DNA of 64,000 bases from Sphagnum compactum. Taxonomy: Eukaryota. The DNA lies in assembly GCA_965153455.1 (NCBI GenBank), contig OZ234493.1:22372213-22436212 (forward strand), given 5' to 3'. Positions 66-59,539 of this stretch are shown here, one piece after another. The first letter of the stretch is position 1. Each line of letters begins with the position of its first letter. The position numbers were made by a program, and so were the translations under genes. A model generated the notes under the pieces. The model was not told the DNA's origin and did no database searches. It saw nothing but the letters and a program-made list of their open reading frames with translations.

Positions 66-1784
66 TCAAGAGCCATTCGATGCTGACCACCGCATGAATG
101 TGCAGGCAACAACTGCCATAGCAAATCTTGCCCTGGCCAGTGGTGATCGTGTCAAAGGTACAGGAGCATTCTCCCGAACTATATTGCTTTCTTGGACGGG
201 TCTCACCTGTATTGCACATTGAAACCCAATTGTCAGGCAGGTTGCAAGTAGCATTTATGACCTTCTACATATGATATCGAACACCATGAGCACCATTACA
301 GCTACACAGTAGTTGCAGCTACAAGCACAAACAATAAATGCACATTCTGTAACAAGATTCTGGGGGAGCTGAATCAAGTATTTCACCTGTGCCTCAGGTA
401 CAACTGTTGTTGGAGAGGTGTCAAGTGCAACAACCAGCGATACTCGGTTTGTTAGCAGCCATTCAACGCTGGCTGGAGTGACAGCTCGACATTTCTTGAC
501 TTTGATCTTCACAAGACTAGGGCATCCACCCACAAGTGCCTCCATACCCCTGTCCGAGATTGGACAACCCTTGATGCAAAGTTTCTTCAGGGCAAGGCAC
601 TTGTCTGCTATGCAGGAAAGCTCCAAATCCCCAAAGGTATCACTTGTGCAGATTGCTAACCGCTCAAGGCTTGAGCAATTGGAGGCCAGAAGACTGAGGC
701 TAGACATTGTAGCATTGAGACCAATTATAACAAGTTCCTGTAGGTCTTTGCAATTTCTGGCCACAGTGTCAAGGCCTTCATCTCCCAGTTGGTTGTTCTT
801 CCAGCTGTCAATATGAAGTTTGCAGAGTTTTGGGCAACCATTAGCAATTGCCGACAAACCCTTGTTTGTACACTCAGATGGCTTCACAACATACAGGACT
901 TGTAGGTTTGTGCAGCATGCTACAGCTTGTAAACCCCGATCGGTTAACATCACTTTCTCAATATGCAGTTCGACAAGGCTAGCCATGTGCACAGTGATGG
1001 ATTCAAACAGTAGATCCCAGTTACCCGAGATTCTTGAAAGCATCAGAGTGTGCAAATTCTTGGACTGTGCGATGAGCGGGTAAACAAGCAATTGTCCATT
1101 AGGAAAATCCTTCAAACACAGTCTTCGAATACTGCAGGAGGTATTTGGGAGTATGAATTCAGATGAATCCTTGAAGCCTTTCAGTCGCTTCACAGTTAGA
1201 TCCTCTAGATTCGCACAGTGCTGCAGGATAGAGTTCAAACCTTGTGGACCAAATTGACAAGAGCCACATGAGAATTTTCGCAAAGTGGAGCCACAAAGCT
1301 TAGCAAATCGATCAATCCCTTGGTCTGTCAAACCCTTACAGGCCTTCAGCTTCAGTTTCCGCAGCTGTTGACATCCCCTTCCCACCACACAAAGCGCATC
1401 ATCATCGATACTGCAGCGCTTTCGGTCACACTTGAGTGTAAGCTTGGTGATATGCTGAAACCGCTCTAGCAAAGCCGGCAACGCCGATCCAATCTCCACA
1501 CAAGCTTGCAAGGACAGCCGTTGCCGCGCTTGTCCTTCTACCCTGTACCATCTCTTACACACCAACGAACACTGCCTCCTGTCCGACAGCTCCAGTTTCT
1601 GAAATACCGCAGCAAGACACTCATCCGGCGCAAATACTGTCAAATCCATTCTTGAAAACAACAAGCTCCGTCCTCCTTCTCCTTCTCCTTTCTCCTCCTC
1701 CTCCTCTTCCCCCTCCTCCTCCTCCTCCTCCTCCTCATGGTCTACCCCATGTGCACACGCTGCCGCAGAGCTTGCTTGCCCCAT
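66..1784 (-). CDS. F-box/LRR protein, VFB/SKIP2 (At1g47056-like) family; two exons, 1784-387 and 206-66
   Basis: ATG at 1784 gives MGQASS (a myristoylation-like N-terminus); the ORF-track start at 1805 is GTG. F-box motif PDECLAAVFQKL..DRRQCSLVCKRW is followed by many cysteine-type LRRs. Phase-0 intron 386-207 (CAG|GTGAAA ... TACAG|GTG) joins to an exon ending AVVACTFMRWSASNGS*, which matches the family C-terminal VACT.RRW motif. Confidence 0.92.
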
Positions 1785-2328
1785 CCTTCCCGTCTCCTCT
1801 CCCACAAACCCAGACCCTAATCACAAATCCCTTGAAAAAACACCCCACACACACAAACATACATACCCACCCACCTACCAACCTATGTACCTACCACACG
1901 TTCTTTGCTACAATCCCCACGCACCCAATAATACACTCCAAACTCTTCTTCCAAGCTCTTCTTCCAAAAACTCTTCTTCCAAACCCTTGTTGTTGTTACA
2001 AGTTTTGGCTTGGCTACCCAATACTTAACATTCCACCCCCCAACTTCCAACACTCCAAACAACTCTTCTTCTTCTTATAGCAGAATCTCAACGACATACA
2101 CTCCAAATCTCTTGAAGAAACAACACACATACTCAAATGCCACACTTTTGTCACAATCCCCACCTTCCACCCAGGAAACTCCACCCCTAAGTTACAACTC
2201 TCAAACTCTTCTTGTTACAAATCCTCCTCACCTCCGAATCCCTTTGAAGAAACACCAAAAGAACACACACCCGCCTACCAAACTTTTCTTACAATATGCC
2301 CACTCAGCCACCCAATACGCCCCAAACC

Positions 2329-2716
2329 CTTCTTGTTACAAAACTTTTGCCACCCAATACACTCCACCAAGAGTTCCAACACCGCAGAATCTTCTTGTTA
2401 CAAATCCTCGCCCAATTCACTCCACCAAGAGTTCCAACACTGCAGAATCTTCTTGTTACAAATCCTGACCCAATTCACTCCACCAAAAGATCCAACACTG
2501 CAGAATTTTCTTGTTACAAATCCTCACCAATTCACTCCACCAAAAGTTCCAACACTGCAGAATCTTCTTGTTACAAATCCTCACCCAATTCACTCCACCA
2601 AAAAGCTCTAACACTGCAGAATCTTCTTGTTACAAATCATCACCCAATTCACTCCACCAAAAAGTTCCAACACTGCAGAATCTTCTTGTTACAAATCATC
2701 ACCCGATTCACTCCAA
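2329..2716. repeat. 57-59 bp minisatellite, about 6.5 copies, 5' of the F-box gene
   Basis: Unit CTTCTTGTTACAAATCCTCACCCAATTCACTCCACCAAAAGTTCCAACACTGCAGAAT starts at 2391, 2449, 2507, 2564, 2623 and 2682. More degenerate copies lie toward about 1900. Confidence 0.95.
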
Positions 2717-9119: not shown

Positions 9120-9273
9120 CACTACAACAAAATGCGTCCTTGTTCACCAAGTGATTTCATTGGATTTTGAGTGAATTCACTAGTTGTAGTGAACGAGGAC
9201 CAGTGAAAAAACAGTGAATTCACTGATCTAGTGAACGAGGACTAGTGAACTACACCCACATTTTGTAATAGCG
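9120..9273. mobile_element. Small non-autonomous CACTA-like element
   Basis: Starts CACTACAACAAAATG and ends CATTTTGTAATAGCG (12/15 match as an inverted repeat). Internal repeats include AGTGAACGAGGAC and GTGAATTCACT. The 3-bp flanks are TAA/CAA. Confidence 0.65.
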
Positions 9274-10174
9274 CAAACACCTTCCACTAATCAAACCATG
9301 TTTCAATACCAATGTTACCAGTCGAGAGTTCATGTTTTTGTAGATGTCATGTTTCAAGGCCATGTTACGAGTGTAGAGTTCATGTTTATTTTACTAATAT
9401 ATTCTTTGTTTGTTTCTAAGGTTTTAAAACGTTCTCATGTCAGATCATGTGCGTGTCGAAAGTGTTTGGTATCACAAAGAACTTGACAGCGGGTCTTGCG
9501 AGCATTCTGTGATCAACTATTGCCTCCTCAATTGGGGCTTTGGAATTAGAACCAGGCAAAGGTCAGAAACATACCCAAAAAATTGATTGACCTCACCAAG
9601 CAAATGCAGACAGAATGCTGATCCACAACAAGACATAGAACCGCTTGTGGCCTGCACATTGACGATTCATGGGAGTTTGATGCATACTCAAAGCAAGCCT
9701 GAGCTAGACTACTTCTCTGATGAATCAAGCAAAATGCAATGCGTGGGCTCAGAGGTCTCATAGTATAATCTTTGTTCAATATATGTATCCTTTGGTCACA
9801 AGAGAACAGGCATCCTTCACTGATCCATCGGAACAGGCATACAGATCACAGGGTAGTAACAAGTAACGAACTTAGAGCCAAACTGAGTGAGGATTGTGGC
9901 CATTGAAGTCTGGTTGGTCGCGGACATGTCCGAGAGTGTATATGACGCAATTGATGTTCCGGACTGCACAGTCGCGCCAAGCACCGGGAATGGAACATGA
10001 AACGAACTTCATCCGGTTTGCTTTGTCGCATTGTTTTTTTTTTTTTTGGGTGGGTTGGTTGCTGCAACCGGCCTCTTCCCGAGATGAATATACGTCAACA
10101 TTCTATTGCATAATCGTGGTAGAACAACGGCAGTCCTGCCCGCGCATCTGTTCCTGTATTTGCAGCAGCCACCT

Positions 10175-11598
10175 TCACGCCACAACCAGCTGCAGCAGAG
10201 TTTCTGTAAACTGCCACAGCAAGCTGGAATCGTGCGTGTGGAATGCAGCACCTGTGTAATATGTCCTCCTCTGGCCCTGCAGTCCATACAACTCCTTGTA
10301 GAATCCGTCCTTGATCGCCTTCGCCGGGACCCTGAGCTCATACGGCGTGTGGCTGGAAAAGATTGCTAAATGCGGCAGCGTCGTCGGCAGCGTACCCGCC
10401 GTACCTAGCCGAGAGATGGTACCAATGATAGCGGCCTCGACCTAAGCGTCCGGGAGGGGGTGGTCGCTGCCGAAATAAACCGCGTGTAGCCCTGGAACTG
10501 CCGTCGGCTCAATCAGGTAGGCGCCCGGGAGAATGGGTAGGTTGTATGGTGTATCGGTGCCGACGTTCACAATCTTTACGTTATCGGGGATGCCAGTGTG
10601 CCGTAGGAGGCTGATATAGTACCCAACATTGCGAAACTGGGCGAAGAGAGAGGTTTCATTGGAGGAGAGGTCCCAGCCGACGAGGTTGTAGAGCTTTGGT
10701 GGGATGGTCAGGAGGATCTTCTTCGCCTGGATGAGCTTGAGCCCGTCTGGAGTCTTGACTACCACCTTGGCGTATGCTCCCACGGCGTCGCGGTCCATCG
10801 CCACAGTGTAACTCTTCAACAACACATCCTGCCCTAGCTCCGTCGTCGCCTTATCGTACAATTCGCTATTATCATGCCTTGCTGTCGTCAAGAACCCAAT
10901 CTCGAGGTCCCTGATGAGATCGCTCCCAAACGCCTTGAACACGTATAGCGTCGAGAGATTGAGGAGATCGGCCACCTCCGTGTATCCGAAGATCAACTGG
11001 ACGACCCCTTGGAGGGAGTATTTGGTGACGAAGTCCCCGAACGGCAGCAGCAGGTCCTCGGGCACAGGGTAGGTGAGGTTGAAACCCGTCTGCACGTATG
11101 GGTACTTCGCGAGTTGTGCGACGTACCCGGCCAGAGCCGCCCTAGGGTCCGATGGCACGTAACCCGCTACTTCCTTTCCTGTGCTGAACTCCACATATGT
11201 GGACGTCGCGCCGGGGCTGGACAAGTTCGTCGTCACGAGCGGGATGCTGAAGCGCTTGAAGTAGTTCTTGACGATGTCGAGATTATGAAAGGCCTGCACC
11301 CCGAAGTCGACCGTGCGTCCGGTCTGGGGATCTGTATAAGTTTGTGTATGTCCTCCCATGCGGTCCTTGTGTTCCACCACAACCACGCTCTTGCCCAAGT
11401 CGCGTAGGGGGATGGCTGCATATGTGCCGCTCGAGCCGCCCCCCCAACGATGCAGACGTCGCGGGTGATTACGTCGGTGAAATTGTACTCTTCCAGCTTG
11501 AAGTCGGAGTACTGGCTTGGCAACGCAGTGGCAACAGAAAGAAAGCTCGCCGCGGCGAGCATTAATAGATATCGAACGACAATCCCCATGACTGTCAT
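10175..11598 (-). pseudogene. Secreted FAD-dependent oxidoreductase, fungal-type flavin amine oxidase / beta-cyclopiazonate dehydrogenase (CpaO)-like; one frameshift and one internal stop
   Basis: Manual joining of frames gives a signal peptide M(TVM)GIVVRYLLMLAAASFLSVATA, then VITRDVCIVGG|GSSGTYAA.LRDLGKSVVVVEHKDRMGGHT (Rossmann GxGxxG plus GG motif). The frame is broken by a 7-G run at 11439-11445 and there is a TAG at 10442-10444. The same frame continues VEAAIIGTISRL...FSSHTPYEL...GFYKELYGLQGQRRTYYTGAAFHTHDSSLLWQFTETLLQLVVA* with the stop at 10175-10177. No CDS intron is needed. Confidence 0.88.
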
Positions 11599-11732
11599 TT
11601 CTAGCTGCAAGTGTCGTCTTGGATAAAATTTCGAGAACCTGGACCAAGACCATTGCAGTGTGTGAGAACAATCGCATATGTAGCTGACGAAGAAGAAGAC
11701 ACGAGCTCAGGAAAGTCCAGTACAGATTCATC

Positions 11733-11864
11733 ACGGCAGGCAGGGATGACCAAAAAAAGGAGTACTGGCTTGGCAGCGCAGTGGCAACTTTTCTTTTCAT
11801 AACGGCAGGCAGTGATGACCAAAAAAAGGAGTACTGGCTTGGCAGAGCAGTGGCAACTTTTCTT
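11733..11864. repeat. 69-bp tandem duplication upstream of the oxidoreductase; each unit holds a 30-nt copy of its coding sequence
   Basis: Units start at 11733 and 11802. GGAGTACTGGCTTGGCA..GCAGTGGCAAC occurs at 11506-11535 (CDS), 11759-11788 and 11828-11857. Confidence 0.93.
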
Positions 11865-14800
11865 GCGTGTGTGTACGTGACTTTCGTCAGCTCTGATCTT
11901 CGCACAATTCCTCAGAAATTTTTTCCATATACGTCTATGGTCAGCAGCTATCTATTTGCTTTTCTGTCTCTTTGTTGCTGAATCTTCTGAGAGAGTCAAA
12001 ATCACGTGAGGAGAGCCAATTGGGTGGCGCCAACAGGCCTCCAACCAGTTCCCATCACATTCCTCCTCTTCCCATTTGGCCTCTTAGAGAGTATTTACAA
12101 CATTTATAGACCTTTTTGTAGTTGTTGCCTACTATTTGTAACACTTGTAAACCTTTTGTGGCCGTAAATTGCTGACCCTGATGCCTATGACCAGATGGTT
12201 ATTATCTATGGAGGAACATGAAAACTAAAAGGGATGTAAGCAGAGTTGTAGATGGGAGACACTGCCCATGCCTGGGCTTAAAACCATAGCAAATTTACAG
12301 TAAATTAAACCTTGATGAGAACATAATCAACAAGGTTCACTAAAGTAGGGTCAAAGCAAACTCTCTTATAATAAGTGGAACTTTTCAATGCTGGGCCATG
12401 ACATTGGAAGAGAAAAGCACCTTGAAATGTTTAAGTATTAGCACATCATATAATAAAACTGATTGCTGTTGCCTTCAGGTTACCACATTGCACCTGGGGC
12501 TAGGTCAGAGGTGAGAGCAAGGGAGATGAGGTGCAGCCTGCAAGCTATCAAGCATCCCAACAAAGCTCCTGCAGCTACCCGCCACAGAAATTCCTCAACC
12601 GCATCAGGAGATCTCCTGCAGGGTCCAGTAAAGGATCCGTATGCCTTCTTAGCATGCCAAGCTCTCTAATCTGCTACAAAAAATCTATGGCAGATTAGGA
12701 CTGTATGAAGAATGAAATCCATTAAAACTGAGACTCAATATCAACTTTCAGTTGCACAGCTCCATGTTGCCAATGCCAAAAAGTACCACACAGGAATGGT
12801 CAAGTAGTTGGATTATTTAGTTGGGAATGTAGACATCTTTTGCTTGAAACAGCTATCACATTGGATGAGTTATTCTCATGGGAGCACAAAGCCAGAACAA
12901 CTGGATATTTAAGCTTCAATCTCATCACCATGTTCTTCAACAAGCAAACTGCTTGAATTTTCTGAGTCAGTTTTTCAATGGCAGTCTACCCTTGCTCTTC
13001 CCCCTATGCGGCAAGTGCTGTTAATCACATATTGCGGCTTTTGTAAAAAAAATCCGGTCCCTTCATCAAGGCTAGAAAACACGAGAAAAGGAAAAGAATA
13101 CCTGGGGAGGTGTATGCCCCCATGTCAACCTGGAACAAGAACACATGCTACTCAGCAGTATGTTTCTGGGAAGGATTTTGCCTTCAATTCCATTCTCTGG
13201 CTGATTATCTCCCTCTCTTATCTCTATCCTGATGCAGAGACCACATTGGTTTGCAGGTTAGTCAGAATTGTTCTGAGCTCTTCAGTTTAGAGAGATTGAT
13301 GTGTTTGACCCTGCAAAACTGGACCTTTAGGGTTTTACATACTGGAAAGCCAGCTTCTGATAGGTGCTCAAATTTCCAGTTGGAAGATTGATTTCCATCT
13401 GCTCATTCCACTACTAAGGATGCCCATAGACCATGAGCGGATATTCACAGAACAGCAGTTTGTAAGAAAACTTCTCAAGTTTTTTCTGAGGCCACATGCT
13501 ATGCGCTGTTGAGATCTTGGGATAGGTGGGGGGAAAAAGCTATAGCAGAAGATAGATGAGCTGCTGAAGAGAACTTTAGGCTAATTGGCCTCATGGATGC
13601 TTCAGCCATAGGAGGACCTATTTTCTGTATGGGCGGGTGAAACCTCCCACTGTGGCAGCCCTGAAGTATAAACATTGAGGTGAGGTCTGATATTCAAAGT
13701 TCTAAGGTTCAAGTTGGTCTGGGATTTGGGAGAAGGTGGGGGGTCAGGGAGCTGCACTGACCCTGTTATTGTAAATTATTGCTGATCTTTTAAGCACAGG
13801 TTTTTTGTTTCAATATCTTGCACACAAGGTTCAGGACTTCATCATTGGTTTTTCTTGAATGGATCCAGGGACACTGCCTGTGCACAGGTGCAAAGAGAGC
13901 AGTGTCTATTTAGCGTAGATGTCATATGAAGGCATGTAATCAATAGGAAATCCTTCACTGTAACCTGACTTTTCTTCGTCCTCTAACTATAACACTATAA
14001 TTCTTTCTTCAGTGTGAATGGCAACTGTCAAGGATGCAAATGGACTCTAAGAGCAGCTCCACCAGCTGCAGTATAATGGCCTGTAAACTGTAATTTGGAT
14101 AAGTTTCAGGCTTTAAATAGTGTAAAATTGAGAGATGCATCCCTCAATCTATCTGAAAAATCTGCGTTCAGTTGCACAAAACTGAAACTCCTTTGCACAA
14201 TAGGTCTCAATTAGGACTCAATAAGAGAATCTTGTGTTCCAAAATAAGAGAAAACTCAACATGAACACAATATTTCAGTTGACTGATTGAAATCGCCCAA
14301 TCTGCTCATTCTACAAATAAGGATATCCACAGTTGTGAGACCAGGACACTGCCATGAGCCTTTCTTCACATAACCAACAGGGACATTTTTTTTGTTTGGA
14401 TGCTTTTTTGTTAGTTGCTTCATTAGTTGCTTCTCTGGATTGATTTAAATTTGGATATGCACTGGTGCACATATACTTGCATTATTCTGCAATGGATATG
14501 CGGTTTGTGTGGGATCATTGATTGATTCCCATATTTAGAGCTCACTGGCTGAAATGTTGTTGAGATTCCAAGTCTAGTTCTTCTGGTCTTAACAATAAAT
14601 GTGTTAATTATCCCTTTGTCAAGACCTCATTCAGCTTACTTGCACTGAAAAGCAAGCATATGAAATTCAGTTTCTTTTCGAGAGATATGTCTGGCAGAGG
14701 GGATCAAACAACTTGGCTGTAGCTCATGGAGGGGATCTGCTTGCAAAGTCACAGATTTGTTGAAGAATCACAATTCACAATGGGCAGTTTGATGGGAATA

Positions 14801-15589
14801 GCATGGCATTGAGAAAGTCTAAAATGTTAAAAGGTTTTCTTGAACATTGGCATTGTCATCTAAATAGGTATCAAGAATCGAGATCTGAGTAAATGAGTCA
14901 GGAATGCATAACTATGATAATTAATCATCTGACTCCACCCAATTCAAAATCACAGATTATGGAAGAATTGACAATGGGTTAGCTTGACAGTAACAGCGTA
15001 GTGGCAACCCACCCCAAATATTTTCACCAGTTTGATCTACATGGATCCTCCTCACAAGGGCTTCCTTCATGAGTATTTGTTAGCACAAGCATCCTGCATA
15101 TGAAACTTTGAGAAGCTCCATGCTCCCTAGACTCTACAACAAAGCGAATAGCACTTCTGTACACAAAGTTCTGAACCTTGATGTTGGCAGCCATTTGAGC
15201 ATAGATCAGCTTCACACTTTTCAACACTCTCGACTTATTTTTAGTTGTACATTCTTGGCATACTCAGGTAGTAGAATATGCATCTTATCATGCTCCAACA
15301 CTCTCTACAGAATTTCTTTTCTCTCCTCGATATCAAGACCACGTTCATCACTTCAAATCTCATTGACTACTCTCTCAGCAACTACAAAACACTTCATATC
15401 CAAGGTCTAGCAAGTACACCTAATTCAAAACCAGCAGAATCTGTACTTTTCAAGTGTAGGTGCCCTTGTTTTTGCATTGCAAGATACTGTCAAGATTTCT
15501 ACTTCTATTCACGTTGCTTCTCCAACCTACATGTGCTTTGATGGTCAAATTCCATGGAGGTAAATTACACCCCCCCCCCCCCCCCAACA

Positions 15590-17827
15590 CCTAAGTGCAA
15601 AACCCTCGACCAAGATTTGACATCAAGTGAAGTGGAAGAATTGTAAGATTTTGAAGTAATGTAACTAGGTAACGAAAGTAGTGATCGCAAACTTTTATGT
15701 TGGCCACAAGATTCAAAGGTAACAAAGGAAGATCAAAAGAATGCAAAGCTCAAAGTCGTGTTTTCCGTGTTCAAACAAAAGTTATTGCAAACATGGCAAC
15801 AGCCACGATGAAAAAGGCAAAGATTTTGGAAAATTAGGCAGCTCTCCAATTGTTCATAATGCTTGAAGAGCTAATCACAACACCTAAAGCACATGAATAT
15901 TTGTTGTTGCAAAGGCGTGAGGAACTTGAAAGGCTTTGGCACCGGATGGGCACATTGCATACTTCATGCAATGCAACTGTTGTTAATACCAGCAATATTG
16001 CAACTGCACCATTAGCACTATATCCCCATGTAAAATCAGCCAATCCCTTCCATGCATCATAGTCAATAAAAAACAACCAAATAGTAGAGACTGTGCATGC
16101 ATTTGATGTTTCATGTACCATGCACCAAATATTAGGACCATACACCGCTAGCATGGTTGATGCAATTTGGAACCTAAATTGAAGTCTAGAATGCAATTTT
16201 GAAAATCCAAGGCAATTTGGAATTGAAAGTTCAAAAATCAAGTTTTATTTCAAGCAAAGTTTGAGCCTTTGAGAACTCACAAATGTTCTACCAAATCACT
16301 TTGAAGTGACAAGTGCCTATTTTGATTTTCTAACTCTTCTATGGATTCCATGTAAGAATTAAAAATCAATTTTCTATGCATTTGTATGGTTGTCACATGC
16401 TCAAATCCCTCCATGTTGTTTGGTCTTTCATCTTCAATCACCATATTTCTTTGAACTCAACCCGAACATCTGAACTTGTTTGGAATTCATAGCTCCATGT
16501 TTTTGGTTACATCAACTCATGGAGCATTGGAAGAAGCATATGTAAAATAATCTCAGTGCCCGATTGCAAAATGAGTTGTAAGATGATGGTGATGAACATA
16601 TCATTTTTGTTATCTTGGTTGAACAACTAAGTGAAAATCTGAATGAAGCACACAAGAGTCATTTTGGCAACAAACCTGGGCATAAACCAAATGTGGAAAG
16701 AGGTAGAGAGGTTAGTCATGTTCGAATTTTTCATGATTACTTTGCAATGCAACTTGTTTACAATGAAAAAATTCAGATGTCGTTTTCGAATGCATAGAAA
16801 ATTGTTTCTGAAAATGGAAGTAGTAGTTGTGCATGATTCTTATTTTGTACAAAAGAGAGATGCTACTAGACTTTTAGGTCTCTCAAACATCCAAAAGTGC
16901 ATTATTGTAATCAAAATGTTACCAAACGATGTGGCAACAAATTATACTCACAAGTATTGTAGATCGAGTGAGTTTACTACACTTGAGTGCTTGAAAAGAT
17001 TGTGAAAGTTATTTGAGCATGTTTTGAGTCCAATTATTTGAAACAACCAACTCTAACAAATGATAAAAAATAGATGAAGATCAATGAAGAAAGAGGATTT
17101 CCAAGCATGTTTGCTTCAATAGATTATATGCACTGGCCTTGGAAAAATTGTCTAGTGGCATGGCAAGGTCAATTTCAGGACAAAAACAAGACAAGAAACA
17201 ATATCCTTGAAGCTATCGTTAATCAATCTTTGTGAATATGGCACGCATTTTTTGGCTTGCCTAAAGGAAACAATGATGTTAATGTTCTTCATAGGTCCCT
17301 TTTTGTAACATAATTATTAAGAGGTGACGAGGTTGGATTCATGGTGAATGGTACGTTTTATCCATGCTACTATTTGTTGGTAGATGGAATTTATCCCCTT
17401 GGAGCTATGTGTAAACCATACATGAACCCCAAGACCAAAAGTGACAACATTTTGCCCAAATGCAAGAAGGAGTATAAAAAGTTGTTGAAAGGGCATTTAG
17501 TGTTCTCCAAGTTCGATGGGCAATAGTTCAAAATCCTTGCCGATTTTGGGACATGTCTACAATCTCTAACATAACATGGCAAATGGACTTGTGATGCCTA
17601 TGCAGGAAACCAAAGTTTTAATGTTCCCATGTGAAAACATTGAATAGCTAGCATTGTATGACTTTTGGCACTTAGGTGGCATGGTGGATAAGAAAATGTT
17701 AGGCCTAATTTTGCGCACACTGTGGGGTCAAAAATGGGTCATGTAAATTTTTGCACCAAGAGTTTGGTGCATGGGTCTGCAAAATGTTGTTGTCAAACCA
17801 TTTTTGGTTTTCCCGATGGAGATGTTC
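15590..17827 (+). mobile_element. Decayed PIF/Harbinger DNA transposon (ORF1 C-terminal relic, DDE transposase relic and right TIR)
   Basis: Transposase motifs lie at about 16640-17580: KKFRCRFRMHRKLF, GFPSMFASIDYMHWPWKNCLVAWQGQF, LEAIVNQSL*IWHAFFG, YLLVDGIYP, ERAFSVLQVRWAI. Many stops and frameshifts are present. An ORF1-like tail LFIMLEELITTPKAHEYLLLQRREEL is at about 15850. The TIR TGGAGATGTTC (17817-17827) is followed by TTA. The left boundary is approximate. Confidence 0.88.
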
Positions 17828-19989
17828 TTACCATGACACATTGTCTATTAAACCTACATTGATAAATTGGCAATAAAAAGAAAAAAAATGTTGTAACATC
17901 AATTGCCATACTGTGTGATTATTGCTTATTGCCAATCAAATCTTCTTGTTTTTTTTTCCTCAACTCTTATTTGTTTCTCTTGACTACACACCTCTTGTTT
18001 CTTGCATTGCCCATTTGCACATCCAACATGGACAAATAGCAATCATAAGGTATTTTTTGACTATGACACATTAGTACATTGAAAACATACACATTGTTTA
18101 TCAAAAACATGTGTGTTTTGACACTTCAAACACTACACTTTTGACAACTATTAACCCTAAAGCGAGATAGCACATTCACAAAATTGAAAATGTATGTTCT
18201 TCAATTAAGCCCTTTCCAAACCTCAATGATAGTGGCCAACACCAAGATTTATGTAATCTCCTATTGGTTGTAAAATAGACATTTCAATTCATTCAAGATG
18301 AAGTTGCCTGCAATAAAAAGGCTACAAACAACAAAGTTCCAAGCTGACCTACAACTTCAAGCACAAATGCATGTCTACAATGATTTGCAAATTGCAACTT
18401 TAACAACAAAAATATGATACAAACAAATTTCATGCATTGTAGAGCTCAAGAAAAACACTACAATTTAAAGATGACGACACACAATTTTTTGGGCAACATA
18501 CACTTCTCAAAAACTTTTTGAATGAAGAGAAATTCTTATTTTCAAGACCTATGGAAATATAAATGACACTTTCAACAAAGGAACTTGAACCGAAGAGACC
18601 ATTGTACAACAAGCAAATCTCCCACTAAATAGAAGAAAAGCAATAAAAAACACAACAATTGTCAAAATAGTAGAAAAGCAACCAAAAAATAATACGAAGA
18701 TGTAGGCAATACAAATGTAATAAAAGACAAGAACAAAATGGACTTGTGAATTGCATTATATCCATGAGTGTAGCCTATGATAATTATTATGATTTTCAAC
18801 ATGTCAACTTCATATATGTATATTTTTTTAAATCATTATTTTGAGGATTATTTAATGATGAGACTAACCTTAGTGTAAGGTAATTGGAACTTACAATCAA
18901 TTAATCTTTCAAAGGAACCCCATATGATTAAAAAAAGGAAAGAAAGTTTCATATATTCAAAGCATTTCAATTACCAAGGAAAGGATTACATATGCAACAC
19001 ATCACAGACTCCTACTTGTTTCCTTTGATGAAGTTGCCCACATTGAGAAAATTACAAATAAGAATTTGGAGGTTGACTTGGACCTTTGACAACAAAGTTA
19101 TATTTATAACAATTTACAACTTGAACAACAAAAACATTTCCAAACAACTTTCATGCAACCATTGATTCAAAGAGAAACAATGCAAGCTTAACAAGTAGCT
19201 CTGTCACGAGAAACTCTATCCTAAAATAATATATTACATTTAAAATTATATTGTGAACTCATGGGATAAGAATTTGTTGGCTTTATGAAGGATTTTGAAA
19301 AAAAAAAAAATTATTTGTATTAAGAATTTTATTTTCTTAACCCTTTTCAAATTCATTGTGCATACTTGAAAATTCCAACCATAGTTCCAACTCTTTTTTT
19401 AAAACCATATAAATGAATATAAAGTTGTAAATAAAAATATTGTGTCAAAGTTCAATCCAAGTTTTTCCCAAAAAAAATGTAAACAATTTTTCATAATGTG
19501 CACAAGGTAAAAGTAAATACTTAGATGTTTGAAACAAACATTGATAATGAATGGATATCATTTAGATGAAAAGACTTGGGAAAGTTTTTCACTTAATTTT
19601 TGGTTTCATTTCACTTTCAAGTTTAAGAATTTGACATCTCTTGTAATTATTGTTGTTAGATTTTGGCTTTAGGATTTTCCATGAAAGGTGTTTTGTTATT
19701 TGTGTTTGATGGGGGTACATGTGGATAAAAAACCATCCAAATTTTTTTTCATTTTGTGGTTGATAACTATGAATTTTTGTTTGCACATGGTCCATGAAAA
19801 TTAATAAAAATAAATAAATTTAAGCCACAAGGTGCCACCATTTTGGGTGTCGTCAATTAGATGGAAAATGCAACATTCATACGCTACATTTTAAAGAAAT
19901 GGAGACTATAATGGTTTTTTGTTATACGTAAGAAGTGTGTTTGGTAATTTGAATGCAATATAAATCAATTTGTCAAGATTTGAGCAATA

Positions 19990-22690
19990 TGCTTCTATTA
20001 CACCAAATTTACATTCATTTTCAAGGACATTTGCCCATATATGGTCTAGTTGAAATCCAACTTTTATGGTGCTTTCACTAAACCTTCATTTGAACTTATC
20101 CATGAATTTAATAGTTCTTGTTTATTTTTTCCATGGTTGTTATCTTTTAAAATGTCAACATTAAAATCTTTAATTATGATGATTGAACAATGTTTGGGAG
20201 AATGTTGAATTATAATTTCAAGCTTGTTTTAAAATGTAAAAACTAAATATGAATGAGCTCCATACACACATACAATATGTATTACTTTTTGTGTATTAAT
20301 ATTAAAAGTCGATGCTATATATTCTAAATCATAATTTGTTATTGTATTAAAAGAATCTAAGTGCATGTGTATGTCATACAACATCATTAACCCATGACTA
20401 TCATGGATTGAAATATATGAATACTTTGATGAAGTTATAAATTTATGCACATCTATTGTTACATGGTGAAAAAAAATTTCTATAAGACGCAAAATATGAA
20501 ACAATTGAAGGTTATGATCATGGTTCATATCTTCATAGTGTTGGCATAAAGAAGTTGTATTCAAGGCTTATATAATTACATGAGAATTATATAAGTTTTT
20601 TAATTGAAAATTTATTGGTATCCAAGTCGCAATTGTTTGTTCTTATATGTGCTTTTGGATCCATATAAAATTTTCATGTTGGAGAGGAGTTAAAAATAAT
20701 AATTTTTCTTTTGTTCGAATGAAGGATAATGTTATAACCCATGTTTTTTAACATTAGTTGGATAAAAATCCAATTCATCTAGTGACAACGGATGGTTTTT
20801 AGTGCTATAAGTTGAATTGAAAATTGAATCCTTGTTATGATAAATGATTGAGATTTACCAACTTTTATATCTTTAATGATAGGTTCAATTGATGTCCATT
20901 TTGATTCAATGTTTTTGTTGTAACAATGACTCTATTTTTCTCTAAGCAATGTTCCAAATTTAGAATTTTGAAACATTATCCATATGATGGTTTTGTCACA
21001 ATATGTTATTGATGTTGTAAAAATGTCATTAGCTCCATTCACAAAACCATCATATGTTGCATAATTACCAACACATAATTCAATTAACATATCTTTTTTT
21101 ATTTGAATTATAAAATGCAAGCTTGTAGTTTTACTTGGATCGTTTGAGAATTTGTAAAATGGTGGGCATGATTAATGACTAGTGTCCATTGCTTTGAAAA
21201 TAAATGTGGGACCTAATTTCTAGCAAACACATGTTCATTGTGTTTTTGCAATAAGTTTATTTATATAATATAAATATGAAATAGTAAAAATTTTGAATGG
21301 TGGTCGATTACAAATTGAATTATAAATTGAATATCCCTTGTATTTTTTATTGCAATGTGAAATCTGTTCAAAGTTTGTAGGAAAACCATATCAAATTGTC
21401 GCATGATTGTATTTAATTCATAACATTGGACATATGTCGGCCAAAAATTTGGTGTTAATGCACTAACATTGTCTTTGATATTGTGAAAGATCCAACTATG
21501 TTTCATAGGGGGTGTTTAATATAAATCATTTATCATAATAATATCCATAACACCGAAGAATTTGTTTTAAATATTATTTATAACCTATTATCTATAACAT
21601 TCAACATTTTAGCACCAACAAATGATATTTCATCTATCACAAGTTGTAATTGTTCATATCAGCATGTCAGTTTATTTATTGAATTTGTTGCTAAGTTTGG
21701 TAAACTAGATAAAGTTTGTTGGAAAAACATGTTCAATGTTAAATGTATTGTTAAACCATCAATAATGAAGGAATCTTTACTTGTTGATGCCATAAATAAA
21801 GCTTTGATTTTGTTAAGTCAAAACATATGTGTTTATTGTATAATTGTAATAATCTTTTAGTGTAAAAATTTTACTAGTTCCAACACCCTTTGTCAAAAAT
21901 AAACAAATCAATATATCAAAATATAATTTTTTTTATACATAATGTCATAAAATATTAATCTTTGTTTTTCATTTAATTTTTTAAGTAAATTACTGTGTTC
22001 AAATTCTTCCATCATCATAGAATATGAAGATTTTGTGAAATTTTTATCTTTTAAAGTTAGTGATTTTTTATTCAATATTGATTGTGTTTATAATAGGAAT
22101 TGCAAGATATGAATCATTTATTTCATCATTTATGTCATCATTCCAAACGTTAATTAGATGCAATGGTTTTGATTTTGAATATATTAAATCGTTCATTTTT
22201 TTTGTATTTTGATATGGCAATTGACAGTTAAAGTTAGTTTCAATTTTAAAATTTTCACCATGTTGTTGACAATATGCATCATGCCATCTTACATTAGTTT
22301 CAAGTTGCAAATTTTTTGAAGTTCGAAATGGTGAATATAATAAAATTATTTTCTCAACCAATTCTCAATATCTTTATATTTATTATAATTTACAAATAAA
22401 ATAATTTGAGGTTTACGATGTTTTGAAATGCTATCTAATAGCAATTAAATTAACTCTGAGGATTTATTGTTTATTATAATACCTTGGCCTTCCACTAATG
22501 TTTGTCAAATAATTAATTAATTAAAAAAATTCATTTCAACAAACAGAATATCCTAAAAGATTCAATATTTTCCTTCACAAATTGTTATTAATTGAATTTA
22601 TCAAAGAAAATTCGACATTTCCGGCATTAATAACATAATTAGTTTTGAAGTAGTGATTGTTTGCTGTCTAATACTTCCAGTGTACTCACT
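19990..22690 (-). mobile_element. Decayed Helitron/Helentron-like element: PIF1 helicase followed by an endonuclease-like domain
   Basis: Minus-strand fragments in order: ILLYSPFR (about 22340), Walker-A-like FLTKGVGTSKIF (about 21885), DGLTIH, VIDEISFVG, FW..VQCYELNTIMRQ, NYATYDGFVNGA. These are followed by LNTTSLCQHYEDMNHDHNL and HIVCVY (EEP endonuclease-like) at 20229-20564. Boundaries are approximate. Confidence 0.8.
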
Positions 22691-22702
22691 TATGGGGTTT
22701 TA

Positions 22703-23099
22703 AAGCATCTCCATTGGATGCTCAGTATGTGACCCTACACAGTAAAATTGGATGATGAAAAGTCAAAACATGCCAGTTTCGCTCACGAAAATAGGTTTTA
22801 GCACTGGCACAATTTGCCCATGTCTGCTAAAATGAGCAAGGCAATGCTCTTCACCAGCAGACAATAGTGTAATAAATATGATCTGACTTCTTCTGCTCAG
22901 TGTTGTGTTTCCGATTGGCTCATCATAATGATTGGTCCCGGTGGTTAGTACTATTAGTACTCCCCCGCGCTTATTCGCATGCTGTCGCAGTTTCAGTTTT
23001 ATGGTCGGGGGTTGCAATGAAGAAAATAACTAAAACTTGGATGTGAGAAATAATGTTTTCGCAGAGTCACATACTTAGCACTGCTTGCCGGAGATGCTC
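22703..23099. mobile_element. Tourist-like (PIF/Harbinger) MITE, about 400 bp
   Basis: Ends are AAGCATCTCCA and CGGAGATGCTC, flanked by TTA/TTA. The interior is homologous to the copies at about 43760 and 48973. Confidence 0.88.
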
Positions 23100-23804
23100 T
23101 TATTAGGTGGTAGTAGCAGAGTAATGAGTGTTGGTGCGTGAACTTTCTGAATGAAGAATGCATGAAAATGGGAGTCATGTTTTTGGAACATGCAATGTCG
23201 TGTTGCAGAGTTGTGGCTCTGTGTTGTTGTTGTAGTAGTAGTAGTAGTAGTTCTTGTGTACTTTTGTTTTAGACTTAGTGGGTGGGAAGTACTTACTTAT
23301 CACAATCCAAATCCGTAAAGCACTGCCTGGATTTTTCCTTTGTATTTTCTCTTACCTGCCTGAAGAAACCTGTTTTCAGCAAGCGGGAGCTTCTGCGGTG
23401 GAAGGTACCAACCAGGCTGTACAGGGATCTTGGAGCTGAGTACAGGCCCTTCTCCTATACAAACTTCCCTTCGTCTTCCCATCACTGCTGCCCTTCTAGA
23501 GAGGTAGGTAGGTGACATGACCTTGAAGGGGAGGAGGAACATGGATGGGCCAGAAAGAAAGAGAGACCAACTGCCATCATTACTCTCCTGGTCTCTCTTT
23601 CTTGTCTGTCATCGCTTCAACTGCAAACAACCTTGCTGTTGTTTTATGATCAAAGCAGACAGGCTGAGAGCATTGGGTGGAAGTTGCAGGAGATTTACAA
23701 CTGTGACCAGTGTGACCAGCGAAATCAAGACATCATCATCCATGCTTATTGTTCACATCAGGAGCAGTTCAGATCAGCTTCTGATACATTCATTCATAAT
23801 GAGC

Positions 23805-31305: not shown

Positions 31306-32921
31306 TTAAGTAGGGTTTGCTGACTGTGAAAGCTCTTTCCTCAACTTGCGGTTAAAGGGTTGACAGGCATCCACACTGAGGTCTACTGCTGCTGCAAGTG
31401 CCATAAAAACAGCTGCGTCTTCCACACATGCAACATGGCGCATGGCTAGCTGCACCAATGGCTTACTGCTTTTGCGGTCTCCTCGAATGGCACAACTCAT
31501 AACAAATCCCCCAACAACTGGAAGCCCCATGTTAAACGAGAACTCACCATTGCTGCTCACAGGACTATCCTTCCTTGGACTGTTGACTGGAGAAATGGCA
31601 GGGGAGACTTCTGGCCTGAAACGACCCGTGTCAATTGAAAACTCCCCTCCCTTCTGTGCAGACAAAACAGTCTCAGACATCAAAATGCCAGAAGCGACAC
31701 CTGCCACGCCACCACCTTCTGCTATCAACTGGAAGCGGCAGCCCACACTTTTACCACCACGCTCTCTCCAAGCCTCCAAGCGACCCCATGGTCTCCAGCT
31801 ATCCATGCCAGTGGGTTCAGGCCGCAAGATCAGCCAGGCACCAGGGTTGGACCTACTAACATAGTCTGAACCTGCCGATGGCACAAAAGGGGTGACCATA
31901 GATGCCGCAGCAACAGGAGAACCCGAAAGGTCATGTATCATGACAAGCCAACCCTTTCTCTCCTTCCTTCCTTTATCCTTCTCTCCAGTTGAAGAACCTG
32001 CCCATCCACTCCCAGAAGAAGAATCACTTTGCCCTACCCTGCAGCATTGTCCCAGAGAAAGAAACCCACAAAACACAAAATCAGGGAAAAGGAAAAAAAC
32101 GCCATTCAGGATGATCTTTGAAACCTAACTTGAAGGGTTTCACAAGTCTCACACATATACAAGCACAGCCATCAAAGATCCCCGGAAGAGAGACAGGAAT
32201 TGCAGCATCCACCCATTGCAGCATGTGCAGAAAGAAAGAAACACATACATGATCCAAGGGGAAGAAAAAGAAGATAGATAGATAGATAGATAGATAGATG
32301 GGTTACTGACCGCGACCTCGAACATCTGTCTCGGCTGAACTTGCAGCTGAAGATGGGTTGTTTGGTGTTCCCACGCACTTGTACAATCTGAGGACCCAAT
32401 GCAGTTTCGCCATCAAACTGAAAGAGATATCTAGGGTCAGCTTCCACTTTCACACTCACATGAAGCTCAGCTCCAGGCTTGCCTCCTTTGGCCTTCTCTT
32501 TGCCGATGCATATCCAGCCATTGTGCAACAGCAGTGGTTTGCCTTCCACCCATTCTGAGCCAACGGGGAGACGAAAAGTCCCCAGTTTCTGGCGTCCTGT
32601 GAACACCACCACCTCAAGACAAGGCAAGCTCCTTCTAGTCCTGGGTGTACAAGACGGCAGTAGCAGCTTCTCTAGTGCCGGCTCGTCCAAGTAGAAGCTG
32701 GCCGCCGCTGCCGCCGTGTTGTTGATCGTATCCGGGTCAACTGTCTCCGTGGGTGCGAACAAGGAAATGGGTACCTTCTGCACTGCGAAATTCGGCAGCC
32801 GTATCTCGCAGAAACAAGGCGTCGACGCCGCATGTACTCCTCCCCTCGACGCTTTGCTCGCCACTGGTATTCTTAACCCCAGTCCCCCCACCGCTAGCCT
32901 TACGAATGCACGCGGCTCCAT
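31306..32921 (-). CDS. DUF1005-family plant protein; two exons, 32921-32311 and 32038-31306, 447 aa
   Basis: N-terminus MEPRAFVRL. Family motifs PCFCEIRL, DPRYLFQFDGET, IFSCKFS, ERKGWLVMIHDLSGSPVAAASMVTPFVPS, SWRPWGRLEAWRE and EDAAVFMALAAAVDLSVDAC are present. Phase-2 intron 32310-32039 (CG|GTCAGT ... CTGCAG|G) keeps the frame, giving 1344 nt. Confidence 0.93.
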
Positions 32922-33001
32922 CACTGCATACTCTCAGTTCTCTCCTCTCTCGCGCTCTCTCTCTCACCACGAGCCTTTGTTCACAAGACCCACATCCCAG
33001 T

Positions 33002-43989: not shown

Positions 43990-44499
43990 TTGGATTCAAC
44001 AAGTTCTCTTTCTCCACTTTTACCTTCCTTTTCACGGAGGAGAAGAGAATAATTCTCAAGACGTTGTTGTCGGAACTTGCTGAAACGAGTTGAAGCGATT
44101 GGGTTACCATTGTATAATAGTACTCGTGCTTTTATTTCTTTAATTATTTTTTGACCTGAAAAATATGATTTCGGCACATGTAGAAAGGATTAAAAAAACG
44201 AAAGACCCTAATTATTTGCCAGATTTTTTCTAATTCTTTTATTAAGTATTTTTTGAGGTAGTCAAAATATAAAAGTATTCTTGATTTTTTAATACTTTCA
44301 TATCTAGTCTGTAACCAAATTTGGCTAAGTCTTCTTGTGGACGATTGCCAATTTGGCTACATCACAACATTGATAAAAAACAAACCTGCATTGCACATTC
44401 AAAATTTGTATGGAGCCCAACTTAGTATAGTTTACTGTCAAAATTCTGAGAATTTCAAAATTGGGTGCAGTTGGACCCTTTTTTGAATTTATTTTTGGG

Positions 44500-44840
44500 G
44501 CAAAACCTAAACCTAGCGATTATCAGTGGAAGGGTATGGTATCTAACATTTCGGCAAAACCTAAACCTATCGATTATCAGTGGAAGGGTATGGTATCTAA
44601 CATTTCAGCAAAACCTAAACCTATCGATTATCAGTGGAAGGGTATGGTATCTAATATTTTGGCAAAACCTAAACCTATCAATTATCAGTGGTAGGTAGGG
44701 TACATAACAATTTTGGCAAAACCTAAACCTATTGTTTATCAGTGGAAGGTACGGTATATAACATTTTGGCAAAACCTAAACCCATCGAGTATCAGTGGCA
44801 GGTACGGGATATAATATTTTTGGCTAAAACCTAAACCTAT
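44500..44840. repeat. 54-bp minisatellite, about 6.3 copies
   Basis: Unit GCAAAACCTAAACCTATCGATTATCAGTGGAAGGGTATGGTATCTAACATTTTG. CAAAACC starts at 44501, 44555, 44609, 44663, 44717 and 44770. Confidence 0.96.
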
Positions 44841-57835: not shown

Positions 57836-58392
57836 CTGACACGAAACAACTAAGTCTACATGACATCCTAAACCAAGATGAGAACATGAGCATGCCTAGT
57901 TTCAAATTTAGATCACGAAACAAGCAAAACACGAACAAAAACACAACATGTGCAAGACGAGAATCCAATAGGACTCTATTGTAAGAACAAAACAAGAACA
58001 TAACAAGTTTATGACAAACTACAATAGGCACAAAATAACCAAATTTACAAGATTTCTTAAACCAAGACGAGAACACGAGCATGTCTAATTCCAAATTTAG
58101 ATCATGAAATGAAAGAAAACAAGAATGAGATCACAACATGTGCAAAAAAAGAATCCAATAGGATTTTATTGCAAGAACAAAACAAGAACAAAACAAGGTT
58201 ATGACAAACTATAATGGGCACAAAACAACCAAGTCTATAAAATATCCTAAACCAAAACAAAAACACGAGCATGCCTAATTCCAAATCCAAATCGTAAAAC
58301 AAGAGAAACAAGAACAAGAACATGACATGTGCAAGATAAAAATTCAACAAGATTTTATTGCAATAATGAAACAAGAACAAAACAAGGTTGTG
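57836..58392. repeat. About 190-bp tandem repeat, 3 diverged copies
   Basis: Anchor GAGCATG.CTA.TT.CAAAT occurs at 57888, 58077 and 58267. Shared blocks are ACATGTGCAA..AATCCAATAGGA and AACAAAACAAGAACA. Confidence 0.88.
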
Positions 58393-59539
58393 ATTAAAAA
58401 AATAAATGCCCAAAATTAGTTAATTGGAAGTGAACTAAGATTTAACTAAAACTTAATTGAAAGTTAATTAGAAGTGAATTGAAAATGAAATAAAGGATAA
58501 CTATAAGTGAATTAAAAGTTAATTAGAAGCTGGCTGAAAATTAACTAAGAATGAATTGAAATTAAATTAAGAGTTTGGTACAAGTTAATTACAAATTATG
58601 AATGAACCTTTAAATGAATGAACTCCATGGTGTTGGCATCTATGACACATGGTGGGAACGACATGGGGACATTGGAAAGGCCCAATTTTTTTATTAACTC
58701 AATGAAAGGTGCAAAAATGGACATCATGGGTGCTAGGAATGTTAATGTTTCAATATGTGAAAATTAAATTTCATATTCTAAAATCAATGAAAATGAAAAA
58801 TGATTTCATGAAGAGTCAATATGATTTTTAATTACGAATGTTTAATAACTAGTTATCTTTTAAATATGATTTTGAATTAAATTTGAATATTTTGACCTTA
58901 TGTCAATTGATCATCACTAGTAGTGTGAAACAATGCAAAACCCAAGTTAGTTATTAATAAAAATTCATAAAAAACTATTAATTATTTTATTTAATAATTA
59001 TTTAATAATTTAGAACTAACTAATAATGAACTAACGAACTAATGAGTTATAGGTTATTATTATTATTCATTATTACCTAATTAATTAATGTAACTCTTAG
59101 TAGTTATTACATGTTAAATATAGTACCTAGGTAATAAGTAGCCCTACCCACCTATTCACCTTATTATGTAGCCTACTTAGCCAATCCACAATATACATAA
59201 AATGTGTATTTAACATGCCATAAATACCACATAAATACACGAATCTATAAACATGTCCCTAATATATTCAAAAGCACCTTAATATTCTTGAAAGGTATAG
59301 GTACACCACATAAAAATAACCAAGTTGTGACTAATTTTACAACTGATTTGACATAGAAGTTTCTTATTGAACATAAAGCCCAAAAAATTAATCAACGTGA
59401 AAGAATGGAAAACCTAGTAGTCATAAACTAGTAACACCAAAATCACAAGAAAAATAATAGATTGAAAAAGATGATGACTAGTTGTAAAAATGACAAAACA
59501 TAATTGCAAATGACAATTACTTGCATATAGTCACAAATT

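What the first reader, a model, noticed from the sequence alone, without database searches (positions are those of the whole stretch)
10175..11598. Fungal-type secreted flavin oxidoreductase embedded in a plant chromosome: candidate horizontal gene transfer
Seen: a full-length coding unit of about 470 codons with no CDS intron, a signal peptide and an FAD-binding motif, much richer in GC and CpG than the flanks. Established, from recall: the motifs RDVCI.GGGSSGTYAA..LRD.GKSVVVVE...GGHT and GFY..L..LQG...T.YTGAAF..HDSS..W typify an ascomycete family of secreted flavin amine oxidases. That family includes the cyclopiazonic-acid pathway enzyme CpaO and differs from plant polyamine oxidases. Inference: the gene was acquired from a fungus, possibly for extracellular secondary-metabolite chemistry or defence. 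Its substrate is unknown.
Basis: partly seen in the sequence, partly recalled or inferred. Interest (0 to 1): 0.85.

Follow-up and report, generated by a model that had tools for sequence, protein, structure and literature searches.

The report
Broken fungal-derived oxidase in peat moss
This is a recently disabled copy of a small peat-moss gene family for a secreted flavin enzyme that peat mosses most likely took from a fungus and then duplicated and diversified; the transfer looks real, but such transfers into mosses are already a known phenomenon and this copy no longer works.

Summary
The GC/CpG-rich, intronless, fungal-type oxidase gene is real, and it is not contamination. It sits on a 37-Mb Sphagnum contig. 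Contigs from an independent run bridge both edges. Intact orthologues with the same non-coding flanks occur in other peat mosses, and proteins from seven named Sphagnum species belong to the family. An intact paralogue lies 2.2 Mb away. The family belongs with the CpaO/OblC subfamily of covalent-FAD oxidases (TM 0.87–0.94 to CpaO) but lacks CpaO's substrate residues. Sphagnum copies form one clade among ascomycete sequences. The donor class is unresolved, a bacterial intermediate is only marginally rejected, and a liverwort fragment exists. GC3 is still decaying toward the host level. Residues lining the substrate pocket vary about twice as much as average among the copies, while the catalytic core is invariant. 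Verdict: a genuine fungus-to-Sphagnum transfer with later diversification, a new member of a known kind.

The parts
10175..11598 (-). Pseudogenised CDS of a CpaO/OblC-like flavin oxidase (470 codons from ATG 11589; an in-frame ATG at 11598; TGA at 10175-10177)
   Evidence: 95% aa identity to S. magellanicum CY35_16G056900 over residues 49-470
11524..11589 (-). Predicted Sec-type signal peptide (22 aa), collinear with ascomycete leaders
   Evidence: hydropathy; N-terminal helix 2-21 in the model of the orthologue; leader comparison; no SignalP run
11439..11445 (-). Lesion 1: homopolymer run 2 bases longer than in all 7 compared copies; frameshift inside GxGxxG
   Evidence: by inference from the table counts, one raw read of X21 carries the window allele across it
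11408..11410 (-). Private R60P change in the first Rossmann helix
10442..10444 (-). Lesion 2: in-frame TAG that removes the last 88 residues
10349..10351 (-). His codon equivalent to CpaO His373 (covalent FAD link); lies downstream of the premature stop
   Evidence: alignment; residue role from PMC13003489
9896..11758 (-). Block shared with the intact paralogue L006 and other paralogues (gene plus UTR-length flanks): the duplicated unit
   Evidence: blastn, 84% over 1895 bp
11727..11864 (.). Two tandem 69-bp copies upstream of the gene, each holding a 30-bp piece of the CDS (11506-11535); remnant of a partial 5' duplication also seen in orthologue L009
5775..9128 (.). AT-rich host flank, collinear with orthologous loci L009 and L010 (5-7% substitutions)

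Best explanation
An intronless ascomycete gene for a secreted covalent-FAD oxidase of the CpaO/OblC subfamily entered a Sphagnum ancestor once, as DNA. It duplicated into a tandem-cluster locus and a second locus about 2 Mb away before today's species split, and it was kept under purifying selection. The window holds the second-locus copy, disabled recently by a 2-bp insertion and a nonsense change; the intact paralogue L006 remains. Shown: integration, synteny, monophyly of the family, the lesions, the fold and the residue map. Inferred for intact copies: the signal peptide sends the protein through the ER, where it is N-glycosylated and binds FAD covalently at His413. In the wall or the water around the cells it removes a hydride from an allylic or benzylic C-H of a hydrophobic small molecule (terpenoid, prenylated or phenylpropanoid compound, or unsaturated lipid) and passes the electrons to O2, giving H2O2 (about 0.7 for this chemistry). 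Paralogues with remodelled pockets act on different substrates. The most likely role is detoxifying microbial metabolites or tailoring the moss's own defence compounds (about 0.4; no substrate is shown).
For: Integration: X1 contigs span 9244-10744 and 11508-11774 across both edges at depth 9-13, like the flanks at 11-13. Orthologous loci L009 and L010 share kilobases of non-coding flank and have intact ORFs. Family members are named from 7 Sphagnum species on 17-37 Mb sequences. Neighbours are plant genes (F-box/LRR, DUF1005, PPR, C2, DUF617). Foreign origin: among the 120 listed of 816 hits, the 8 non-Sphagnum rows with an organism name are 5 ascomycetes and 3 actinobacteria. The nearest Atlas clusters are 97-100% eukaryote, commonest Ascomycota. 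Sphagnum is one clade, 100/100. Sphagnum plus the Leotiomycete clade is not rejected (p-AU 0.45); Sphagnum plus Tat bacteria is marginally rejected (p-AU 0.048). The 42-residue leader is collinear with the lichen fungus Schaereria and unlike the 45-52-residue T-R-K bacterial leaders. Amelioration: polarised synonymous changes are 39 GC-to-AT against 11 AT-to-GC, giving an equilibrium GC3 of about 0.45, the host level, while current GC3 is 0.71-0.77. Selection: dN/dS 0.28 at dS 0.083 against L009; deepest paralogue dS about 0.3. Enzyme class: model TM 0.87/0.94 and rmsd 1.9 A to CpaO. His413, Tyr323, Tyr357 and Ser454 are invariant in 21 of 21 dereplicated copies. Pocket positions plus or minus 2 average 0.62 bits against 0.32 overall, reached by 1 of 425 circular shifts. 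CpaO and OblC chemistry.
Against: The inferred early GC3 (about 0.77) is above the fungal-type loci measured (0.49-0.67) and nearer the bacterial ones (0.77-0.89). A 160-aa liverwort (Calypogeia fissa) fragment has Sphagnum copies as its best hits in my set, and a joint clade is not rejected. Absence from other plants rests on capped hit lists in which most rows are unnamed. OblC of A. ustus is reported as cytoplasmic, so secretion is not universal in the subfamily. No substrate was tested.
Confidence: 0.78

Rival explanations
1. The immediate donor was an actinobacterium (or another Tat-secreting soil bacterium) that had itself taken the gene from a fungus.
For: Actinobacterial and Tat-leader homologues are 60-64% identical, as close as the fungal ones. 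High GC3 (0.71-0.77, about 0.77 early) fits bacterial values of 0.77-0.89 better than fungal-type 0.49-0.67. The gene has no intron.
Against: The AU test rejects Sphagnum plus bacteria, though only at p 0.048. Bacteria form their own clade, 97/86. The leader is Sec-type and collinear with fungal leaders. Fungal-type loci L020, L021 and L023 are also intronless. N-glycosylation sequons are present.
Confidence: 0.1
2. One much older acquisition in a moss-liverwort ancestor followed by many losses, or a later transfer between bryophytes, linking the Sphagnum and Calypogeia copies.
For: Calypogeia fissa fragment P0474 on a 10.7-Mb contig. Its best 11 hits in my set are Sphagnum-type at 56-58%, against 55-58% for the best microbial rows. 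It shares LQGQRRTYY, otherwise seen in only one row (P0381) that is not Sphagnum-like. A joint clade is not rejected, p-AU 0.44.
Against: It does not group with Sphagnum in either free tree. GC3 is far from host equilibrium and still falling, which limits synonymous divergence since acquisition to a few tenths per site (inference). No other moss was seen among the listed hits.
Confidence: 0.08
3. The two lesions are assembly errors or private to one accession, and this locus still works in the species.
For: Lesion 1 is in a homopolymer. Run X2 has contigs without the 2 extra bases (39.3 of 69 depth) and with Arg at codon 60 (72 of 72). X2 and RNA run X22 differ from the window at 10442 (3 of 3 reads, the cleanest with 2 other differences), which would fit a transcribed allele with the ancestral codon. 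Whether 10444 also differs was not shown: 132 rows were cut. Low dN/dS on the window's branch (9 synonymous, 10 non-synonymous) says the loss is recent.
Against: There are two independent lesions plus R60P. One raw Illumina read of X21 appears to carry the window allele across the run. X1's contig has the window's base at 10442 and a further 1-bp deletion at 10456, so a second sample is broken too. No RNA read is 99% or more alike (0 of 200).
Confidence: 0.2
4. Fungal contamination or a chimeric assembly.
For: Alien composition; Sphagnum hosts many fungi.
Against: Both edges are bridged by independent contigs. The flanks are syntenic in other Sphagnum. There are three copies on one 37-Mb contig, and homologues in 7 named species.
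Confidence: 0.01

Closest known systems
CpaO, beta-cyclopiazonate dehydrogenase of Aspergillus oryzae (PDB 9kp8, 9vex; PMC13003489, text parts 1-3 of 5 read)
   Same: Three-domain fold (TM 0.87/0.94, 36% identity); GxGxxG(x)17E; the His that carries FAD (His373 = His413); Tyr283 = Tyr323; Ser414 = Ser454; N-glycosylation sequons.
   Different: His165 is Tyr, Trp317 is Tyr, Asp412 is His and Tyr413 is Asp, so the substrate is not beta-CPA. No PKS-NRPS or prenyltransferase gene is evident nearby. The window copy is broken.
OblC, ophiobolin C16-C17 dehydrogenase (PMC8836403, passages read)
   Same: Reported to cluster with CpaO in the same new subfamily. It desaturates a terpenoid side chain and is promiscuous and unclustered in A. 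ustus: a model for what the moss enzymes may do.
   Different: Not compared by sequence here. Reported as cytoplasmic in A. ustus.
Uncharacterised Pezizomycotina homologues (Chlorociboria, Lachnellula, Venustampulla, Schaereria, Lepraria, Alectoria, Geoglossum, Chaenotheca) and Tat-leader actinobacterial homologues (Actinoplanes, Mangrovihabitans)
   Same: 51-62% identity; same pocket core (Tyr323, Tyr357, His413, His/Gln452, Asp453, Ser454).
   Different: The Sphagnum copies have a 0.29 substitution/site stem and remodelled pocket-rim positions; none of these homologues has a known substrate.
Polyunsaturated fatty acid isomerase PAI of Propionibacterium acnes (PDB 2b9w)
   Same: Second-best fold (TM 0.74/0.81).
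   Different: 19% identity; no covalent FAD.
Documented microbe-to-bryophyte transfers (Dong et al. 2025, PMC12513842, section 8 and passages read: 1,809 families, including RDS1, YANB, EUPF, FBT; KP4 cited there)
   Same: Intron-poor fungal gene among plant genes, often tied to secondary metabolism or defence.
   Different: This family is not named in the main text ('oxidase' 0 and 'oxidoreductase' 0 occurrences); the supplementary tables could not be read.

Membership tests
CpaO/OblC subfamily of flavin amine oxidase superfamily | PF01593 membership | tested here: met
   55 bits (intact P0001) and 50.9 bits (window fragment) against a cut-off of 19.8
CpaO/OblC subfamily of flavin amine oxidase superfamily | GxGxxG(x)17E FAD motif | tested here: met
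   G49-G51-G54...E72 in intact copies; broken by the frameshift in the window copy
CpaO/OblC subfamily of flavin amine oxidase superfamily | His at the position of the 8-alpha-N1-histidyl FAD link | tested here: met
   His413 in 21 of 21 Sphagnum-type copies and 76 of 76 aligned homologues; in the window it lies after the premature stop
CpaO/OblC subfamily of flavin amine oxidase superfamily | The covalent bond itself, and O2-to-H2O2 turnover | not testable with these tools
   needs recombinant protein
CpaO/OblC subfamily of flavin amine oxidase superfamily | CpaO-type three-domain fold, distinct from MAO, PAO and LAAO | tested here: met
   Foldseek TM 0.87/0.94 and rmsd 1.9 A to 9kp8, against about 0.65 and 5+ A for MAO and putrescine oxidase; phmmer E 1e-83 against 1e-9 for the next family
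CpaO/OblC subfamily of flavin amine oxidase superfamily | Clusters with F5HN72, B8NI10 and OblC in a sequence similarity network | not tested
Isofunctional CpaO (beta-CPA cyclase) | His165, Trp317, Asp412 and Tyr413 substrate residues | tested here: not met
   Tyr202, Tyr357, His452 and Asp453
Isofunctional CpaO (beta-CPA cyclase) | Clustered with PKS-NRPS and prenyltransferase genes | tested here: not met
   ORFs of 120-130 aa or more in the window, 20 kb to its left and 100 kb around L006 show no evident such gene; only 14 non-oxidase ORFs went to Pfam, and short exons would be missed
Plant polyamine oxidase | Full-length similarity to plant PAO | tested here: not met
   none of 43 PDB sequence hits is labelled a plant PAO; hits other than CpaO cover only the N-terminal Rossmann part
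Fungus-to-bryophyte HGT (criteria as in PMC12513842 methods) | Best non-recipient hits are from the donor group | tested here: inconclusive
   microbial, but mixed fungi and actinobacteria, and most rows are unnamed
Fungus-to-bryophyte HGT (criteria as in PMC12513842 methods) | Large scaffold, plant neighbours, orthologues in related taxa | tested here: met
Fungus-to-bryophyte HGT (criteria as in PMC12513842 methods) | Supported nesting inside a donor clade | tested here: inconclusive
   FastTree 0.91-0.96 as sister to Leotiomycetes, but an IQ-TREE polytomy; AU tests
Functional gene (this copy) | Uninterrupted reading frame | tested here: not met

The most novel reading that the evidence does not exclude
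Sphagnum captured a fungal covalent-flavin tailoring oxidase on its stem lineage and expanded it into a family whose substrate pockets diversified (dN/dS 0.7-1.0 among cluster copies). The family is a secreted, H2O2-producing system that makes or breaks down antimicrobial chemistry of peat bogs, the first plant members of the CpaO/OblC subfamily. The same subfamily would also have moved from fungi into actinobacteria (gaining a Tat leader) and separately into a liverwort.
Probability: 0.25. Interest if true: 0.75.

Novelty: new member of a known kind. Interest (0 to 1): 0.45.

Why it matters
Sphagnum stores much of the world's peat carbon partly because its tissue resists microbial decay (general knowledge), and the enzymes behind its extracellular chemistry are poorly known. 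A fungal-derived, secreted oxidase family that was kept, duplicated and remodelled at the pocket is a concrete candidate that can be tested. It would also supply plant members of an enzyme subfamily first described in 2026 with only two characterised activities. The copy in this window shows the family's birth-and-death turnover. The event type, fungus to moss, is not itself new.

Tried and rejected
Contamination or chimera: rejected. An intron at either lesion: the database model P0002 (346 aa) skips the frameshift with an intron that deletes the whole GxGxxG motif and ends at the TAG; orthologues have no intron there, so I treat that model as an annotation artefact. Leotiomycetes as the named donor: suggested by FastTree but lost in IQ-TREE once 13 named Leotiomycetes were added, so not claimed. 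Biosynthetic gene cluster: none evident. A protein-coding identity for the transcribed upstream stretch at 12.4-19 kb: no convincing ORF. The GTDB scan found 1 locus of 96 candidate stretches (a Myxococcales MAG, 42%) because its patterns were Sphagnum-specific, so it says nothing about bacterial range. Naming the outgroup and deep bacterial rows failed: 0 of 10 clusters carried an organism. Earlier-findings look-ups by sequence and by words returned nothing. Literature searches listed no paper on this family in Sphagnum (listings only); searches returned nothing. Healey et al. 2023 (PMC9946827) has no occurrence of 'horizontal' (passages only). Ma et al. 2022 is not held. PMC11228847 passages concern other genes. 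No complex prediction was run.

Full report
1. Observation. The minus strand from 11589 (or 11598) to 10175 encodes a roughly 470-codon flavoprotein with a hydrophobic leader and no CDS intron. It is the most GC- and CpG-rich stretch of its length in the window: GC 0.565 and CpG o/e 1.01, and none of 598 other windows comes close. GC3 is 0.74, against 0.45-0.54 for the F-box and DUF1005 ORF stretches. It is not intact. Aligned with 7 other copies, the window alone has a 7-base run at 11439-11445 (5 in all others), which shifts the frame inside GxGxxG. It also has a TAG at 10442-10444 (CAA in six, GAA in one) and an Arg-to-Pro change at codon 60. The stop removes the last 88 residues, including the His that would carry FAD.

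2. Host and integration. The window's protein is 100% identical to a record labelled Sphagnum compactum, and the window lies on a 37-Mb contig. That contig holds two more copies about 2.2 Mb away: L006, an intact 471-480 aa ORF with 87% DNA identity, and L007, a truncated, frameshifted piece. Cluster look-ups name members from S. magellanicum, fallax, jensenii, balticum, tenellum and troendelagicum, several per species. Contigs of run X1 cover 9244-10744 and 11508-11774, crossing both gene edges at depth 9-13, like the flanks; no single piece spans the whole stretch. Among 32 metagenome loci, L009 and L010 have intact ORFs (95-96% DNA identity) and share kilobases of the window's non-coding flanks at 4-11% substitution; L038-L040 share flanks too. 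Contamination is excluded.

3. Are the lesions real? X1's contig has the window's base at 10442 and an extra 1-bp deletion at 10456, so a second sample is broken. From the table counts, one X21 raw read lacks the paralogue variants and keeps the 7-base run; this is my inference from one read, and X21 may be the assembly's own material. Against fixation: X2 has contigs without the 2 bases and with Arg60, and X2 and RNA run X22 differ at 10442. The row for 10444 may be among the 132 not shown. RNA reads lie on the gene in the expected orientation at depth 1-3.5, but 0 of 200 laid reads are 99% or more alike, so they come from another allele or paralogue. The window's private changes are 9 synonymous and 10 non-synonymous, so the loss is recent and may be polymorphic.

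4. Origin. Of 816 hits, 120 were listed. After the Sphagnum group, identity drops from 74-100% to 54-64%. The 8 non-Sphagnum rows with an organism name are 5 ascomycetes and 3 actinobacteria. A reciprocal search from Chlorociboria listed 120 of 676 hits and added named Leotiomycetes. FastTree on 132 and 228 rows put Sphagnum sister to Leotiomycetes (0.91, 0.96), deep among sequences with Sec-type leaders, with Tat-leader bacteria nested among them. I then chose 66 rows from about 410 held proteins for IQ-TREE (LG+G4, no mixture model). Sphagnum is 100/100, Leotiomycetes 96/96 and bacteria 97/86, but the backbone joining them is open and the outgroup rows have no organism names. Sphagnum plus bacteria is rejected only marginally (p-AU 0.048); Sphagnum plus Leotiomycetes is allowed (0.45). 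The leader is collinear with that of Schaereria and of an unnamed row (42 residues, ALP at the same place) and unlike the bacterial T-R-K leaders. Fungal-type loci L020, L021 and L023 (taxonomy not verified) are intronless too. Against a fungal donor, GC3 in Sphagnum (0.71-0.77) exceeds theirs (0.49-0.67) and approaches bacterial values (0.77-0.89). Synonymous changes run 39 to 11 toward AT, which implies an equilibrium near 0.45. The family is still ameliorating, which by inference favours acquisition on the Sphagnum stem over the origin of bryophytes. A search of shorter proteins (120 of 120 hits listed) found one other plant, a 160-aa C-terminal fragment from the liverwort Calypogeia fissa. 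It does not group with Sphagnum in free trees, but a joint clade is not rejected.

5. How intact copies most likely work. CpaO is the only close solved relative by sequence (E 1e-83; next family 1e-9) and by fold (TM 0.87/0.94, rmsd 1.9 A for an AlphaFold model with pLDDT 93). In PMC13003489 (parts 1-3 of 5 read) CpaO is a glycosylated oxidase with FAD bound to His373. It removes a hydride from a benzylic carbon and yields H2O2, and it founds a subfamily with OblC, which desaturates a terpenoid side chain. Mapping CpaO's 14 active-site positions through the alignment, His373, Tyr283 and Ser414 are kept; His165, Trp317, Asp412 and Tyr413 are not. So the chemistry is probably shared and the substrate is not. 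I took 21 Sphagnum-type sequences (55 near-full-length of 81 considered, dereplicated at 96%; many assigned to Sphagnum only by cluster). In them the core residues are invariant, while positions at and next to the pocket are about twice as variable as average: 0.62 against 0.32 bits, 1 of 425 shifts as high. The residue map comes from a sequence alignment, not from distances in the model. dN/dS is about 0.3 between loci and 0.67-1.0 among the three cluster-type copies compared, which fits relaxed or diversifying selection. No biosynthetic cluster is evident nearby. I therefore favour secreted oxidases acting on hydrophobic small molecules at the moss-microbe interface. Secretion, covalent FAD, substrate and role are all inferred.

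6. Novelty. Microbe-to-bryophyte transfer is common: 1,809 families in PMC12513842 (section 8 read). Earlier notes on this genome list other fungal-type genes (unchecked). I found no paper naming this family in Sphagnum, but the supplementary HGT tables of PMC12513842 could not be read and Ma et al. 2022 is not held. S. fallax appears in the former's taxon lists, so the family may already be listed there without comment. Verdict: a real transfer, a new member of a known kind; this copy is a pseudogene. Interest 0.45, carried by the expanded family with remodelled pockets and not by this copy.

Noticed in passing
window 9120-9273: Short element that begins CACTACAACAAAA and ends in an imperfect inverted copy; read depth thousands of times the flank. 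Looks like a high-copy non-autonomous CACTA-type element, just downstream of the gene.
   Followed up: partly
window 12166-13120: Inverted relative to L009, L017 and L032. RNA reads from a related copy cover 12424-13178 with a joint 12576-13100 in 87 reads. No convincing ORF; possibly a transcribed non-coding unit duplicated along with the oxidase.
   Followed up: partly
window 15210-23304 against L010, L038, L040: In those loci this block lies in the opposite orientation and joins the gene's 5' end at 11699, so some Sphagnum lineages have a rearranged upstream region for this gene.
   Followed up: partly
window ~15540-17820: Decayed PIF/Harbinger-type transposon (PF04827 at 17074-17232; the PIF/Harbinger label is recalled).
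   Followed up: partly
P0014, P0021, P0023, P0067, P0089 and related rows: A clade of bacterial homologues with Tat-like leaders nests among fungal-type sequences, suggesting a separate fungus-to-actinobacteria transfer of the same enzyme; a second Tat group includes a Myxococcales MAG-like sequence (L004).
   Followed up: partly
P0474: Calypogeia fissa (liverwort) carries a 160-aa C-terminal fragment of the same subfamily on a 10.7-Mb contig; possibly an independent transfer.
   Followed up: partly
window 255-1820 and 31306-32933: Ordinary plant genes: an F-box/LRR protein and a DUF1005 protein.
   Followed up: yes
L048:4499-6431 (G000:C1 ~24.575 Mb): Another GC/CpG-rich island, about 23 kb from the intact paralogue, with transposase-like ORFs; no Pfam hit for the piece tested.
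   Followed up: no
L018/L019: A paralogue whose 3' end is split by an insertion of about 2.5 kb; several other copies (L007, L025, P0011) are broken, so turnover is common in the family.
   Followed up: partly
window 2351-2715, 44499-44840, 57840-58393: Tandem arrays with periods 58, 54 and 190.
   Followed up: no
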